Positions 6,048-56,233 of a DNA stretch of 64,000 bases are shown one piece after another (position 1 is the first letter of the stretch; each line of letters starts with the position of its first letter). The position numbers and the translations under genes are program-made. The notes below the pieces were generated by a model. That model was not told the origin of the DNA. It was given only the letters and a program-made list of their open reading frames with translations, and searched no databases. This DNA is from Chloroflexota bacterium (GTDB lineage Bacteria; Chloroflexota; Dehalococcoidia; Lucifugimonadales; Lucifugimonadaceae), in assembly GCA_022574675.1 (NCBI GenBank), contig JACZRO010000002.1, positions 8,529-72,528 on the forward strand. Direction: 5' to 3'.

Positions 6048-7151
6048 TTACGTCAACGGGTACAGCTCGGTCTCCGGATAGAAATCGGACCAGGCGAACC
6101 AGAACGACACAATGGAGTGGACCCGCTCAAGCTGCACGCCTTCCAGTTCCCCGTCGATCCCGCGTCCGGTGAACGGCAGGAAGCGCGAGCCCGTCGCCTT
6201 ATCGCGAAGCAGGACCGTGCCATCGTCATCGACCACCTGCTCAAACTCCAGGCGCCGTCCATTCACCACCCGGTTGTATACCAGGGCGGTATCGCTGTTC
6301 GGCTGAAAAAATATGACCACGTCCTTGCCCGCCACGGTGTCGTTCACGACCGGCATAGCTTCGAGCGCGGACAGGGGAAACGCCTTCGGCCCACCATCGA
6401 AGCCGATCCCGACGACCTTGTCCTTGCGTGCCAGGCGGTCGTCGACGATGGACTCGCCAATTACGCCGGCGTCGTTATTGACGTAGTACCCGTCATACGG
6501 ATCGGAGGAACCGCGGCGGCCCTTGTCCAGGACAGCCGTGTCGGGGTGCTCACGCACCCACTGGCCGTACGTCGTCTGTACGATCGGAATGGTCTCCAGG
6601 TACCGGCCGGCGAACTCACCCTTGACCCCGCGTGACAGGAACTGGCTCCAGAGAGTGCCGCTCTGGTGGTCGTACATCACCAGCGCGTTCATGATCAGCT
6701 TTCCGGACACACCAAATGTGTGCTCGACTCCGTCTATCGTCCGGGCATACCCGATGCCGGTGAAGCAAAGCGGTCACCAGGTGACGGCTATGGGAACCCC
6801 GCCGACGGTATCGTTCACGATCTCCCGTCCGCTCAGGAATGGTATCGAGTAAACGCGACTGTCCCCGTTTATCGTTACGCCCAGCACCGGCTCGTCGTCG
6901 TCGTACGTCTCGGCCTGTTCCGGTGAAATGAACCGCGGATTGAGAATCGCCTGGATGCCGTCCCGCGGCAGCAACGTGACGATCTCCAGCGTACGGTCGA
7001 GGGACGCAGGGTCATTTGGATCGCCCGGCAACACGATGGTCTCCTTGCTCAGTAGCGCAATCCGCAACGCTCCCGGTCCGCCCAGGACGAAGAACATGAC
7101 GAGGCCCGCGGCGGCCAGTCCCATGAACAGATATGACCTGGGAATCTTCAA
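6048..7151 (-). CDS. DUF3179-family exported protein with an in-frame TGA (6774..6776) at the first Cys of the conserved CPLC motif; candidate selenoprotein or nonsense pseudogene
   Basis: Track ORFs 6774..7151 and 6048..6710 share one frame. Read-through gives ...IVNDTVGGVPIAVTW[TGA]PLCFTGIGYARTIDGVEHTFGVSGKLIMNALVMYDHQSGTLWSQ..., and there is an N-terminal TM/signal anchor. Confidence 0.7.
6741..6760 (-). other. SECIS-like hairpin 13 nt downstream of TGA 6774..6776
   Basis: mRNA CCGGCAU-CGGGU-AUG(C)CCGG. 7 bp with one bulged C and a G-rich 5-nt loop. Confidence 0.4.
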
Positions 7152-53332: not shown

Positions 53333-53548
53333 TCAGCCAGCGCCGGACAACGCCTCACTCTGTTTTGGCGGGCAGCGGCGGTCCGCGTAGGAGCAAAAGA
53401 CGCAGCATTCGCCTTCCTTCGGCCGGAGCAGCTCGCCGCACGACGTGCAGTCGTAGAACACCTGTCAGGTGTCGGCCGGCATTGTCTCCCGTTTCGCGGC
53501 GCCACAGGCCGGACAGGTCAGTACGGCTTCCAGAAATATCTTCGGCAT
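53333..53548 (-). CDS. GDCCVxC-type small Cys-rich protein with in-frame TGA at codon 28 (53465..53467); candidate selenoprotein
   Basis: Hand translation: MPKIFLEAVLTCPACGAAKRETMPADT[TGA]QVFYDCTSCGELLRPKEGECCVFCSYADRRCPPKQSEALSGAG*. Not in the ORF track because of the TGA. Confidence 0.7.
53440..53454 (-). other. SECIS-like hairpin 10 nt downstream of TGA 53465..53467
   Basis: mRNA ACGAC-UGCAC-GUCGU. Confidence 0.35.
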
Positions 53549-53635
53549 CGTCTCGTTCCCTCTTGCCGGTCTCCGTTGCCGGGCCGGGGAGTTGTTGTTC
53601 ATAGCTGGTGGTTAGAGGGCGGCCGTTCGCGCGCC

Positions 53636-54349
53636 TCAGCAGTCACACGCGATCTCGTCATCTGGGTCGCCGACCCTCTCCTCCGCGTCAACTCGCCACA
53701 TGGTGCCGATGAGCCGGCCGCCGGACGTCGCGACCAGGATGCGATCGACGTTACGCGCCTGCATCCGTTCCAGAATCGGCGCCGCCTCGGCGTCTGGGCG
53801 GGATGTGGTCGGGCCGAGCTCCATGATGTCCTCGACGACAGCTGCGGGGTCGCCCGCCAGCGCCGGAGCACGCAGCCGGCCGAGGATGATCCGTTGTTCG
53901 TTGACGACAATGCACTGGTCCTGGTTCGCGGCGCGCGCGCGCTCGGCCGCATCTCCGACGGTATCCTCCAGCGCGCAGGTCACGTCGTCCGTCCGAGCCA
54001 CGTCAGCAGCCCGGAGGACGGGCATTGCGTCGCCCTCGCGCGGCAATCCTGCGGCGAACCAGTCCGCCTTTCCCGCCTCGTAGTCATATACGTTTGTAAA
54101 GCCAAGGGATTCAAGCCGCGCCGCGGCTCGTAGACTCATGTCTCAAGTCGCGTCGTGTCAGTACAGGACGACCGGGCGGGCGCGATCGAGGACGGCCGCG
54201 GTGTCCCGGTTGAGCTTCTTGAGGGGGAGGTTGATGGCGCCGGGCAGACGGCCCTCGGCGTACTCGCGGGCCGGGAGCACGTCGACGAGCTGGGTATCCT
54301 CATCGTCGAGCATTCTCTGAAGTTCATCTCGTGAAACCGTCGTTGGCAT
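53636..54349 (-). CDS. Rhodanese-domain + CBS-pair protein with two in-frame TGA codons (54158..54160 and 54143..54145) in the active-site loop; candidate di-selenocysteine protein
   Basis: Track ORFs 54158..54349 and 53636..54139 are in one frame. Read-through gives ...DRARPVVLY[TGA]HDAT[TGA][34 protein letters not shown]..., followed by a CBS pair. Confidence 0.7.
54114..54128 (-). other. SECIS-like hairpin 14 nt downstream of the second TGA (29 nt from the first)
   Basis: mRNA AGCCG-CGGCG-CGGCU. Confidence 0.35.
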
Positions 54350-54382
54350 TCGATTTTCCTTCCAATCAGGCCCATCGCCGCG

Positions 54383-54925
54383 TCAGATCGCTTCTTCTAT
54401 GTACTGCGCCAATCGGTCGTACCCCACCGGGGGGCCGCTGTAGACCACTCGATGGTCACGGTCCAGCACTACCGTGTGTCCGAGAACCCGTACCCGGAAA
54501 TCCGAGACGAGTTTCCCGTCCGGCGCCACAGCCCAGGACACGTCGGCCGCCCCTTTAGACCGCCAGTACTGGACCCAGCTTTGTAGTGGATCCCCGTAGA
54601 TGTCGATCGCTACCGTTCGCAGCCCCTCGCTTCGATACTTCTCTTGAAGCGCCCCGAGGACTGGAGCCTCCAGTCCGCATGTCGGTCAGCCAACGAACGA
54701 AAAATAGATGACGAGCGGCCGGTCGGCATGGTCCACGAGGCGGAACTCGGACATCTCCAGGGTCCCTTCACCCACCGCGTCGGCGACCTGAATCGAAAAC
54801 TCCGGAGAGGGCGGCCGGCCGGAGACCAGTTCTTCTGAGGTTCTCTCCGAGCTTTGGCAGGCGATGGTCGCGATCATTCCGATTACGACCACCGCGCCTA
54901 TAAATGGCAAGCGGATCAATCTCAC
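54383..54925 (-). CDS. TlpA/ResA-like thioredoxin-fold protein (signal/lipoprotein-like N-terminus) with in-frame TGA (54686..54688) at the first Cys of CxxC; candidate selenoprotein
   Basis: Read-through gives ...DRPLVIYFSFVG[TGA]PTCGLEAPVLGALQEKYRSEGLRTVAIDIYGDPLQSWVQYWRSKGAADVSWAVAPDGKLVSDFRVRVLGHTVVLDRDHRVVYSG...*. N-terminus MRLIRLPFIGAVVVIGMIATIAC. Confidence 0.7.
54658..54676 (-). other. SECIS-like hairpin 9 nt downstream of TGA 54686..54688
   Basis: mRNA GGACUGGA-GGC-UCCAGUCC (8-bp perfect stem; or 7 bp with loop AGGCU). Confidence 0.45.
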
Positions 54926-55095
54926 CGGCTCTGCTCTTCCCCCGCCGTCAACTCCGGCGCGGGCTTCTCCGCGTCGCGTAAATCAAGCTCGGTCTCGTCA
55001 CCCTCGTGAGCCCTCGATCTCAGTCCTCTGACGGCGACCACCGCCGCAATGGCGATCGGTATGCAACATACCGCTGCGGCTAGAAAAAAAGGCAC
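54922..55095 (-). CDS. Small single-pass membrane protein with a vicinal Cys pair in the TM helix
   Basis: GTG 55095 preceded by GGGGGA. (M)PFFLAAAVCCIPIAIAAVVAVRGLRSRAHEGDETELDLRDAEKPAPELTAGEEQSR*. Its stop overlaps the GTG start of the next gene (GTGA). Not in the ORF track. Confidence 0.45.
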   Translation of the reverse strand: MPFFLAAAVCCIPIAIAAVVAVRGLRSRAHEGDETELDLRDAEKPAPELTAGEEQSR

Positions 55096-55139
55096 CTGTC
55101 ATCCCCCTAAAGTTCCCGTGTCCTCAGTCCAACTGGCGT

Positions 55140-55811
55140 TCAGGCGTACTTCAACAAGGAAGCCCAGGCTTGCTTTCCGAGATCGAACGCATCCGGCAAC
55201 GATAGGAAGACGACTTTCATGTCCCTGCCCTCGGACCACTCTTTTGCCTCAGCCTGATTCGCAAAGAAATGGACTTGCTGGCAGAACGTCATGTAGATGG
55301 ACTCGATAGAACTTCCGTCATCGCCTGCCGGGTCCAGCATGATCATGGATACGACGGCATCCGGGTGACTGCTCGACGACACGCCCTCCGGCGTGACGGT
55401 CAACGTGATCGACTCTCCCGATGACGGAGAATTGGATACGACCAGGGCTTCTTTGCCGAGGGCCGGCGGCAGGAACAACGAATCCCACGCGCACCAGGTA
55501 CTCAGTCGAACGCCGGATACGGTGAACTGGTGCGGGTGCTCGTTGAGCGACAGGCCCGCTACACCGAGGATGTTGTCGTCATCATCTCGTTCAGATATCT
55601 CCCGTACGAACGCCTCGGCGGCATCTCGATCCACGCCCAGGGCGTCGGAGATCTCGGAAACGTCGGCCGGCCGGATCGGATCGCCTTCGGCCAACCGTCG
55701 CCATATTGCGATCAGAACCCGGGCGTCGTCGGATCCAAACAAAGGCGGTATGCCGGCGGAGTTCAGATTTTCGGCGATTTCTCCGATGGTCAGCTGCGTG
55801 TTGGTCGTCAT
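55140..55811 (-). CDS. merB: Organomercurial (alkylmercury) lyase MerB
   Basis: LSTWCAWDSLFLPPALGKEALVVSNSPSSGESITLTVTP and TFCQQVHFFANQAEAKEW align with the MerB catalytic regions (YAWCALDTLIFPALIG... / SFCCHVHFFAS...). The Cys-Asp-Cys triad is conserved. Confidence 0.85.
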   Translation of the reverse strand: MTTNTQLTIGEIAENLNSAGIPPLFGSDDARVLIAIWRRLAEGDPIRPADVSEISDALGVDRDAAEAFVREISERDDDDNILGVAGLSLNEHPHQFTVSGVRLSTWCAWDSLFLPPALGKEALVVSNSPSSGESITLTVTPEGVSSSSHPDAVVSMIMLDPAGDDGSSIESIYMTFCQQVHFFANQAEAKEWSEGRDMKVVFLSLPDAFDLGKQAWASLLKYA

Positions 55812-55858
55812 TTCACGATTCTCTGTTGTTTACTCGCCTGTTAGCGCGTTTCTTTGTC

Positions 55859-56215
55859 TTACCGGAGCGTCTGGCAGGCGATGACCTGCTCGGCGTTATC
55901 TGCCAGCACTTGCTCTGCGCCTCGGAGGAGGTCCGCTACGCGGTCATCTCCGATGGAATAGATCACTCTCTTGCCGTCGCGCACGGACGCCACGAGCCCG
56001 CACCACTTGAGACAGGCGAGGTGCGTCGAAATCCTGCTCTGGGACCCTCCTGTGCCTTCCACGAGTTCGCCCACGCTTTGCGGGCCTTCGTCCAGAAGAA
56101 GTTTCAATATTCGGACCCGGGTAGGATCGCCGAGCGCCCGGAAGAACTTGGCCAGCAGGTCGGCTTGAGCCGCCAACAATTCCTGCGTGCGCTCTCGAGT
56201 TAGCGTTGTGGTCAT
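55859..56215 (-). CDS. ArsR/SmtB-family metalloregulator
   Basis: FFRALGDPTRVRILKLLLDEGPQSVGELVEGTGGSQSRISTHLACLKWCGLV. The Cys pair in the recognition helix region is a possible metal site. Confidence 0.85.
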   Translation of the reverse strand: MTTTLTRERTQELLAAQADLLAKFFRALGDPTRVRILKLLLDEGPQSVGELVEGTGGSQSRISTHLACLKWCGLVASVRDGKRVIYSIGDDRVADLLRGAEQVLADNAEQVIACQTLR

Positions 56216-56233
56216 AGTTCACTTCCATGTATT

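What the first reader, a model, noticed from the sequence alone, without database searches (positions are those of the whole stretch)
6048..7151. DUF3179 protein with TGA on the first Cys of its CPLC motif (U-P-L-C): candidate new selenoprotein
Track ORFs 6774..7151 and 6048..6710 form a single frame interrupted only by TGA 6774..6776. Read-through gives IVNDTVGGVPIAVTW-[TGA]-PLCFTGIGYARTIDGVEHTFGVSGKLIMNALVMYDHQSGTLWSQ. As I remember the DUF3179 family core (..VTYCPLCGSG..FGVSGxLYNSxLVMYDxxTxSLWSQ), the stop falls on the first Cys of CPLC and creates a UxxC motif, the classic Sec-for-Cys substitution. A hairpin, CCGGCAU-CGGGU-AUG(C)CCGG at 6741..6760, starts 13 nt after the TGA and has a G-rich loop, as bacterial SECIS elements do. 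There are no frameshifts or other stops, and three further genes in this window show the same pattern.
Basis: partly seen in the sequence, partly recalled or inferred. Interest (0 to 1): 0.7.

Follow-up and report, generated by a model that had tools for sequence, protein, structure and literature searches.

The report
Known DUF3179 selenoprotein gene, confirmed
The stop codon inside this gene is a genuine selenocysteine codon with its own RNA signal, but DUF3179 is already on published lists of bacterial selenoprotein families, so this is a well-supported ordinary case, not a discovery.

Summary
On the minus strand, 7151..6048 is one open frame broken only by TGA 6776..6774. The read-through product matches the whole Pfam DUF3179 profile (E 1e-84). 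The TGA lies where most full-length homologues have the first Cys of CPLC.

It is not an error or a pseudogene. In 80 species-representative Chloroflexota genomes, 78 of 79 orthologous sites carry TGA at this codon; one has TGT. A 7-bp hairpin with a 5-nt loop and an invariant G lies 20 nt after the UGA. It pairs in 97.6% of cells and four of its seven pairs show compensatory changes, one of them purely synonymous. Cys-encoding paralogues, some adjacent on the same contig, have a degraded hairpin.

The window holds three more in-frame-TGA genes: GDCCVxC (seleno)protein, a redoxin and a rhodanese-CBS protein. TGA is also the commonest ordinary stop, so the organism decodes Sec.

The "new selenoprotein" claim fails. 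DUF3179 (PF11376, UxxC/T) is listed as a prokaryotic selenoprotein family in reviews from 2022 and 2026, credited to Zhang and Gladyshev 2007. Marine Dehalococcoidia are documented as selenoprotein-rich.

The protein's biochemical function is still unknown. selA, selB, selC and selD could not be checked from a 64-kb window.

The parts
6048..7151 (-). DUF3179 selenoprotein gene, read through the UGA. It has 367 residues counted from TTG 7151; ATG 7124..7122 is an alternative start. The stop is TAA 6050..6048.
   Evidence: One open frame with a single internal TGA. Pfam PF11376 E 1.1e-84 over the full profile. tblastn matches in relatives run across the stop in one frame.
6774..6776 (-). In-frame UGA read as selenocysteine: the first position of the U-P-L-C motif.
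   Evidence: TGA at the homologous codon in 78 of 79 sites from 80 Chloroflexota genomes, TGT in one. Full-length homologues have CPLC here.
6765..6767 (-). TGC codon for the invariant second Cys of the UxxC motif.
   Evidence: P118, L119 and C120 are invariant in the 38-sequence alignment A3. The codon was read.
6741..6760 (-). Bacterial SECIS hairpin inside the coding sequence. The 5' arm is CCGGCAU, the loop is CGGGU (6753..6749), and the 3' arm is AUG(C)CCGG.
   Evidence: The homologous helix (alignment columns 17-23 with 29-35) pairs in 97.6% of cells. Four of 7 pairs have compensatory changes and 0 of 500 shuffles reach the observed values. RNAalifold finds the same helix. The loop G at position 2 is invariant. 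Energy of the bulged register is -7.2 kcal/mol.
6069..6965 (-). DUF3179 domain, residues 63-361; the UGA lies inside it.
   Evidence: Pfam match coordinates.
7077..7133 (-). N-terminal hydrophobic segment YLFMGLAAAGLVMFFVLGG. It is probably a membrane anchor or signal sequence, which would place the domain outside the cytoplasm (inference).
   Evidence: Read directly from the translation. Full-length homologues also begin with a hydrophobic stretch. The AlphaFold model of P0002 has an N-terminal helix followed by an all-beta domain.
53333..53548 (-). Supporting context: GDCCVxC domain (seleno)protein gene with in-frame TGA 53467..53465.
   Evidence: NCBIfam NF041374, 97.4 bits against a cut-off of 40.
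53636..54349 (-). Supporting context: rhodanese-CBS gene with two in-frame TGAs (54160..54158 and 54145..54143), motif U-HDAT-U.
   Evidence: Pfam Rhodanese E 1e-18 and CBS. An 86%-identical metagenome relative, L088, keeps both TGAs. Cys homologues have CxxxxC at these positions.
54383..54925 (-). Supporting context: redoxin or thioredoxin-like gene with in-frame TGA 54688..54686, motif U-P-T-C.
   Evidence: Translation. Pfam Redoxin E 1.1e-8. A strong hairpin follows the UGA.

Best explanation
This is a functional selenoprotein gene of the DUF3179 family in a marine Chloroflexota (Dehalococcoidia or SAR202-like) genome.

Inferred mechanism, from the established bacterial Sec pathway: the UGA at 6776..6774 is recoded co-translationally. 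The hairpin 13 nt downstream, with its loop 20 nt downstream and a conserved G, is the bacterial SECIS element. SelB-GTP carrying Sec-tRNA(Sec) binds it and delivers Sec to the ribosomal A site, in place of release-factor 2 termination.

The product is a protein of about 367 residues with an N-terminal hydrophobic anchor and an all-beta DUF3179 domain. Sec and the invariant Cys three residues later form a U-P-L-C motif in the turn between two strands. The most likely chemistry is a selenol/thiol (selenenylsulfide) redox couple acting outside the cytoplasm. Metal or metalloid binding is the alternative. The substrate is unknown.

Shown here: the conserved TGA, the conserved and covarying hairpin, the Cys homology, and the presence of other selenoprotein genes. 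Inferred: SelB dependence, actual selenium incorporation, the topology and the redox role.
For: 1. Single in-frame TGA inside a full-length DUF3179 domain.

2. Same codon in relatives. TGA occupies it in 78 of 79 sites from 80 species-level Chloroflexota genomes at 47-84% protein identity, and the peptide is conserved on both sides of it.

3. Database gene calls. The nearest relatives (55-100% identity) are almost all called as 213-245-residue C-terminal fragments that start just after this site. That is the signature of an unrecognised Sec codon. More distant full-length forms have CPLC.

4. Hairpin columns 17-23 with 29-35:
- 97.6% of cells paired, against 26-47% when the partner is slid by 1-3 columns.
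- 65 cells with changes on both sides.
- 0 of 500 shuffles reach the observed covariation score.
- One compensatory change is purely synonymous: Thr ACG with Arg CGN against Thr ACT with Arg AGA.

5. Fit to the published bSECIS model (PMC13188914). The loop is 5 nt with an invariant G at position 2 followed by G or U, and it starts 20 nt after the UGA. The stem is 7 bp.

6. Natural controls. Cys-encoding (TGT/TGC) paralogues, some in tandem with a TGA copy on the same contig (L081, L082, L085), keep only 3-6 of the 7 pairs. Sec copies keep 7 of 7 in 66 of 79.

7. Same window: a curated (seleno)protein family hit (NF041374, 97.4 bits) and two more TGA-for-Cys genes.

8. TGA ends 31 of 58 ordinary coding-like ORFs, so it is not reassigned genome-wide.

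9. Literature. DUF3179 UxxC/T is a listed selenoprotein family. A Dehalococcoidia MAG with 49 selenoproteins is reported in PMC13326102.
Against: - No selA, selB, selD or tRNA-Sec gene lies in the 64-kb window. The only tRNA is tRNA-Pro, and the rest of the genome could not be searched.
- In this gene the conserved register has a C.C mismatch at pair 18-34. The bulged alternative gives -7.2 kcal/mol, just short of the -7.5 cut-off of the published model.
- The 65-nt fold is no more stable than shuffled sequence (z = -0.31), so on this one sequence alone the hairpin would not be convincing.
- Part of the hairpin follows from the conserved peptide FTGIVYAR: two Cys forms with that peptide still pair 6 of 7.
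- There is no direct evidence of selenium incorporation.
- The redox role is inference. No solved structure or characterised homologue exists.
Confidence: 0.93

Rival explanations
1. Pseudogene, recent nonsense mutation or sequencing or assembly error: the TGA is a real premature stop and the gene is dead or mis-read.
For: A single window cannot by itself distinguish TGA from TGC/TGT. One relative, L087, has AGA at the site, which shows the codon can mutate.
Against: TGA sits at the identical codon in 78 of 79 sites from 80 independently assembled species-level genomes. The protein sequence is conserved in frame on both sides and no other stops or frameshifts occur. A covarying hairpin sits at a fixed distance.
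Confidence: 0.01
2. Two separate genes: UGA is a true terminator and the C-terminal two-thirds is translated independently from an internal start (for example GVG at 6710, as gene callers assume).
For: Public gene calls annotate the C-terminal part alone in dozens of relatives.
Against: The Pfam domain spans the stop. Cys homologues are single polypeptides. The 22 codons between the UGA and the first possible start encode the most conserved part of the family (PLCFTG..FGVSG) in frame. The called starts differ from relative to relative (MCFTG.., MYGRE.., MNALV..), so they are caller artefacts.
Confidence: 0.02
3. UGA is decoded here, but not as selenocysteine. Options are genome-wide reassignment to Trp or Gly, or SECIS- and SelB-like-dependent insertion of Cys or another residue.
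For: Sequence analysis cannot identify the inserted residue, and no sel genes could be examined.
Against: TGA terminates 31 of 58 ordinary ORFs in the window, and in-frame TGAs occur only at Cys-homologous redox positions. This excludes global reassignment. The hairpin matches the published SelB-type bSECIS rules. The family and the clade are catalogued as Sec-using.
Confidence: 0.03

Closest known systems
DUF3179 domain-containing selenoprotein family (PF11376, motif UxxC/T). It is listed in PMC9312934 Table (example MBW1804167.1) and in PMC13188914 (example MDJ0986319.1), both credited to Zhang and Gladyshev 2007 (PMC1976440).
   Same: Same Pfam family, same Sec position, same UxxC motif, and a SECIS hairpin immediately downstream of the UGA.
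   Different: The original description came from deltaproteobacterial symbionts of Olavius. Here the gene belongs to a large Chloroflexota clade in which the Sec form is the rule (78 of 79 sites), often next to Cys paralogues.
Bacterial SECIS consensus model (Zhang and Gladyshev; summarised in PMC13188914 Fig. 2A).
   Same: 5-nt apical loop, G at loop position 2 followed by G or U, 7-bp upper stem, loop 20 nt from the UGA, located inside the coding region.
   Different: In this particular gene and its two nearest relatives (L001, L003) the stem has a C.C mismatch or a bulged C. The hairpin alone gives -7.2 kcal/mol, marginally weaker than the model's -7.5 cut-off.
Thioredoxin-fold UxxC selenoproteins, for example the thiol:disulfide interchange or redoxin-type gene in this same window (54383..54925).
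   Same: Sec replaces the first Cys of a CxxC-type motif. There is an N-terminal hydrophobic anchor and a presumed extracytoplasmic redox role.
   Different: DUF3179 is not a thioredoxin fold. The model is all-beta, and no thioredoxin-like family is hit in Pfam.
Rieske-like or NirD small-subunit beta fold.
   Same: The best, but weak, Foldseek matches for part of the predicted structure: 3c0d, 4aiv and 5cxm, with target-normalised TM 0.44-0.61.
   Different: No match reaches E 0.001. The profile comparison with the window's own Rieske-type protein gives probability 0.1%. No Cys/His cluster ligands are conserved.

Membership tests
Bacterial selenoprotein gene (Sec-UGA plus bSECIS) | In-frame UGA inside a conserved ORF, aligned with Cys in homologues | tested here: met
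   CPLC in full-length homologues; the column is C in most, S in 4 and R in 1 of 38.
Bacterial selenoprotein gene (Sec-UGA plus bSECIS) | UGA conserved at the same codon in orthologues from other genomes | tested here: met
   78 of 79 sites TGA and 1 TGT, in 80 species-level genomes.
Bacterial selenoprotein gene (Sec-UGA plus bSECIS) | Downstream stem-loop fitting the bSECIS model: loop 3-9 nt, stem 4-16 bp, G in the first two loop positions, 16-37 nt from the UGA, MFE <= -7.5 kcal/mol | tested here: met
   Loop 5 nt (CGGGU), G at position 2 invariant across 79 sequences, 7 bp, 20 nt spacing. Energy is -7.2 for the hairpin alone and -11.4 for the 48-nt segment, so the energy criterion is borderline for the hairpin alone.
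Bacterial selenoprotein gene (Sec-UGA plus bSECIS) | Hairpin maintained by selection: compensatory changes in Sec forms and decay in Cys forms | tested here: met
   4 of 7 pairs compensatory and 0 of 500 shuffles reach the observed values. Cys forms keep 3-6 of 7 pairs; Sec forms keep 7 of 7 in 66 of 79.
Bacterial selenoprotein gene (Sec-UGA plus bSECIS) | Sec machinery (selA, selB, selC, selD) in the same genome | not testable with these tools
   None in the 64-kb window, and the rest of the genome is not available. Indirect support: three other TGA-for-Cys genes in the window, including NF041374, and a selenoprotein-rich Dehalococcoidia MAG in PMC13326102.
Bacterial selenoprotein gene (Sec-UGA plus bSECIS) | Selenium actually incorporated at the site | not testable with these tools
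   Needs 75Se labelling or mass spectrometry.
Pfam PF11376 DUF3179 | Score above the gathering threshold over the full profile | tested here: met
   284.8 bits against 27; profile positions 1-292 of 292.
Published DUF3179 selenoprotein family (UxxC/T) | Sec at the first position of a UxxC/T motif in a PF11376 protein | tested here: met
   U-P-L-C. The family entry was read. Direct alignment with the cited accessions was not possible.
Rieske-like / NirD fold | Significant structural or profile similarity, and conserved cluster ligands | tested here: not met
   Foldseek best E 0.015 with none at or below 0.001. hhalign probability 0.1%. No conserved Cys/His set.

The most novel reading that the evidence does not exclude
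The least ordinary reading still open concerns the biology of the family, not the recoding. In Chloroflexota the Sec form of DUF3179 is the default state and has been duplicated repeatedly into tandem Sec/Cys arrays (L061, L081, L082, L085). This suggests a specialised extracytoplasmic selenol-based activity of an uncharacterised all-beta fold, distinct from its Cys paralogues. The SECIS constraint is also strong enough to have shaped the amino-acid sequence (FTG..A against FSA..S/G). If that activity turned out to be a new redox or metal(loid)-handling chemistry widespread in ocean SAR202-type bacteria, it would be of moderate interest.
Probability: 0.15. Interest if true: 0.45.

Novelty: already known. 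Interest (0 to 1): 0.15.

Why it matters
For discovery it matters little. The family, the motif and the recoding mechanism are all published, and the host clade is known to be rich in selenoproteins.

Its practical value is for annotation. Dozens of public database entries for this clade are truncated C-terminal fragments, because gene callers stop at the UGA. This window alone holds four selenoprotein genes with five Sec codons that a standard pipeline would split or truncate.

The 79-sequence hairpin alignment, with Cys paralogues as internal controls, is a clean example of a SECIS element constraining a coding sequence. It could serve as a training or benchmark case for selenoprotein predictors.

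The function of DUF3179 remains an open but modest question.

Tried and rejected
- Stability of the single sequence. The 65-nt segment after the UGA folds no better than shuffles (z = -0.31). RNAfold on 63 nt even prefers a different 5-bp hairpin. The hairpin is convincing only through comparison with relatives.
- Rfam and ARAGORN on the window. They found only tRNA-Pro: no tRNA-Sec and no SECIS family hit.
- Sec machinery in the window. None was seen among about 60 coding-like ORFs.
- Function from gene neighbourhood. Clustering ORFs from the flanks of 80 loci gave only lineage-specific housekeeping synteny: a GNAT acetyltransferase in 29 loci, FolD, ECF sigma and anti-sigma, and a sulfatase. 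No conserved redox or metal partner appeared.
- Function from structure. The PDB sequence search found nothing. The AlphaFold model of the Cys homologue P0002 is confident (pLDDT 92.2), but Foldseek against PDB gives no hit at E <= 0.001. The weak Rieske/NirD-like resemblance was not backed by a profile comparison with the window's own Rieske-type protein (probability 0.1%), so it was dropped as a classification.
- NCBIfam has no model that matches DUF3179.
- Genome-wide UGA reassignment was considered and rejected, because TGA is the most frequent ordinary stop.
- A paper on RNA-dependent Cys biosynthesis in Chloroflexi (PMC5424206) was checked for UGA-to-Cys recoding and contains nothing relevant.

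Full report
**What is in the sequence.** On the minus strand, 7151..6048 is one frame of 368 codons with a single internal stop, TGA at 6776..6774. With Cys placed at the stop, the protein matches Pfam PF11376 (DUF3179) at E 1.1e-84. The match covers residues 63-361 and the whole profile, 1-292 of 292, so the stop lies inside one domain and not between two genes. The hairpin CCGGCAU-CGGGU-AUG(C)CCGG is at 6760..6741 and begins 13 nt after the UGA.

**Is the TGA real and selected?** A protein search returned 2628 relatives. The nearest ones (55-100% identity) are almost all annotated as fragments of 213-245 residues that begin a few codons after this site, for example MCFTGIVY..., MYGREING... 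and MNALVMYD.... More distant full-length proteins of about 375 residues carry CPLC there. That pattern is what gene callers produce when they meet an unrecognised Sec codon.

I then fetched DNA for the 80 best loci from one-genome-per-species bacterial and archaeal genomes. All are Chloroflexota (Dehalococcoidia, SAR202, Anaerolineae) at 47-84% protein identity. At the homologous codon, 78 of 79 sites have TGA and one has TGT. The flanking peptide is conserved in frame on both sides. A sequencing error, a pseudogene or a chance stop is therefore excluded.

**The hairpin.** I aligned the 48 nt starting at the TGA from the window and 78 relatives; no gaps were needed.
- Columns 17-23 pair with 29-35 in 97.6% of cells.
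- Four of the seven pairs show changes on both sides, in 65 cells.
- None of 500 shuffles reaches the observed pairing or covariation score.
- Sliding the 3' partner by 1-3 columns drops pairing to 26-47%.
- RNAalifold recovers the same helix independently.

One compensatory change is purely synonymous: Thr ACG with Arg CGN against Thr ACT with Arg AGA. Others link a synonymous third position to an amino-acid change on the opposite arm (FTG..A against FSA..S/G), so the RNA constraint has shaped the protein sequence. The 5-nt loop always has G at position 2, followed by G or U, and starts 20 nt after the UGA. These values fit the published bacterial SECIS model: loop 3-9 nt, stem 4-16 bp, G in the first two loop positions, and 16-37 nt spacing (PMC13188914).

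**Controls from Cys forms.** Seven Cys-encoding homologues were recovered as DNA. Several sit in tandem with a TGA copy on the same contig (L081, L082, L085). They keep only 3, 4, 4, 5, 5, 6 and 6 of the seven pairs. Sec copies keep 7 of 7 in 66 of 79 cases and 6 of 7 in 12. Two Cys forms that share the peptide FTGIVYAR still pair 6 of 7, so part of the helix follows from the peptide. Perfect pairing tracks the TGA.

**Weak points for this particular gene.** The window, L001 and L003 have a C.C mismatch at pair 18-34. The 65-nt fold is no better than shuffles (z = -0.31). On this sequence alone the SECIS would be unconvincing. The comparison with relatives carries the argument.

**Does the organism decode Sec?** The window has no selA, selB or selD gene, and its only tRNA is tRNA-Pro. 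The indirect evidence is good:
- TGA is the most frequent ordinary terminator, ending 31 of 58 coding-like ORFs, which rules out global reassignment.
- The window holds three further genes with in-frame TGA at Cys-homologous positions, clustered on the minus strand downstream of ArsR and MerB genes.
  - A redoxin...YFSFVG-U-PTCG, Pfam Redoxin.
  - A rhodanese-CBS protein with two TGAs: VVLY-U-HDAT-U-DMS. Both TGAs are kept in an 86%-identical relative and both are Cys in more distant homologues.
  - A small protein that matches the curated model NF041374, "GDCCVxC domain-containing (seleno)protein", at 97.4 bits against a cut-off of 40.
- The BSepDB paper lists a Dehalococcoidia MAG (UBA1141) with 49 selenoproteins among the richest bacterial selenoproteomes (PMC13326102). 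TGA orthologues were found here in sister UBA MAGs (L005, L010, L028).

**Comparison with what is known.** A full-text search found DUF3179 named in two reviews of prokaryotic selenoproteins. The table entry reads "DUF3179 domain-containing protein, pfam11376, UxxC/T". The example is MBW1804167.1 in PMC9312934 (2022) and MDJ0986319.1 in PMC13188914 (2026). Both credit Zhang and Gladyshev 2007 on the Olavius symbiont metagenome. By elimination in the table order, it corresponds to one of that paper's OS_HP1 and OS_HP2 families; this mapping is my inference. So the family, the Sec position and the motif are published. The gene here is one more orthologue, in a clade already known for a large selenoproteome. 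The "new selenoprotein" claim does not hold.

**What the protein may do.** No characterised relative exists. There is no NCBIfam model and no PDB sequence match. An AlphaFold model of the closest full-length Cys homologue (P0002, 64% identical) is confident, with pLDDT 92.2 and pTM 0.89. It shows an N-terminal helix followed by an all-beta domain. CPLC sits in the turn between strands 110-117 and 122-127.

Foldseek against PDB gives nothing at E <= 0.001. The best partial resemblances are to Rieske-like and NirD small-subunit folds. A profile comparison with the window's own Rieske-type protein is null, and no Cys/His ligand set is conserved. I therefore do not classify it as Rieske-like.

Gene neighbourhoods across the 80 loci show only housekeeping synteny.

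Three features guide the working hypothesis: the N-terminal hydrophobic segment, the invariant second Cys, and the tolerance of Ser at the first position in some homologues. From these I propose an extracytoplasmic selenol/thiol redox couple, with metal or metalloid binding as the alternative. This step is inference.

**Verdict.** The Sec interpretation is supported with confidence of about 0.93. Novelty is rejected, and interest is low. The main practical point is systematic mis-annotation: many public entries for this clade are truncated at the UGA, and this window alone contains four selenoprotein genes with five Sec codons.

Noticed in passing
window 53333..53548 (-), TGA 53467..53465: Small Cys-rich gene (MPKIFLEAVLTCPACG...ADT-U-QVFYDCTSCG...GECCVFCSY) that matches the curated NCBIfam model NF041374, 'GDCCVxC domain-containing (seleno)protein', at 97.4 bits against a cut-off of 40.
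   Followed up: yes
window 53636..54349 (-), TGAs 54160..54158 and 54145..54143: Rhodanese-CBS fusion with two in-frame TGAs five codons apart (VVLY-U-HDAT-U-DMS). Both are kept in an 86%-identical metagenome relative (L088), and both are Cys (CxxxxC) in more distant homologues. The 2026 review lists a UxxxxU rhodanese only for TsoB, a rhodanese/DsbD fusion, so this rhodanese-CBS architecture may be an uncatalogued form of a known kind.
   Followed up: partly
window 54383..54925 (-), TGA 54688..54686: Membrane-anchored redoxin or thioredoxin-like gene with a U-P-T-C motif and a strong hairpin (GGACUGGAG-GCU-CUCCAGUCC) after the UGA. It matches Pfam Redoxin and AhpC-TSA.
   Followed up: partly
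window 53333..56218 (-): ArsR-family regulator (55862..56218) and MerB alkylmercury lyase (55143..55829) lie directly upstream, on the same strand, of the redoxin, rhodanese-CBS and GDCCVxC selenoprotein genes. This looks like one organomercury or metal-stress gene cluster containing three selenoproteins with four Sec codons.
   Followed up: no
L081 175 and 1345; L082 575 and 1759; L085 134, 1439 and 2850; L061 4235 and 5547: DUF3179 genes occur as tandem arrays that mix Cys (TGT/TGC) and Sec (TGA) paralogues on the same contig. L081 is syntenic with the window (DUF3179, Apt, cupin) but has an extra Cys copy upstream.
   Followed up: partly
L087 466 (protein P0012): One relative has AGA (Arg) at the Sec position but keeps a perfect 7-of-7 SECIS hairpin. 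It differs from TGA by a single base, so it is either a very recent Sec-to-Arg mutation or a sequencing error.
   Followed up: no
proteins P0003-P0011, P0037, P0052-P0120: Dozens of public protein clusters for this clade are C-terminal fragments that start at arbitrary codons just after the UGA. This is systematic truncation of DUF3179 selenoproteins by gene callers.
   Followed up: partly
proteins P0050, P0051, P0068, P0070 (alignment A1, columns ~226): Some full-length DUF3179 proteins have SPLC in place of CPLC or UPLC. The first position of the motif is therefore replaceable, while the second Cys is invariant.
   Followed up: no
alignment A2 columns 19-21 and 31-33 (window 6758..6756 and 6746..6744): The SECIS stem forces correlated amino-acid choices in the protein: Thr-Gly...Ala against Ser-Ala...Ser/Gly. 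This is a clear case of an RNA structure constraining a coding sequence.
   Followed up: partly
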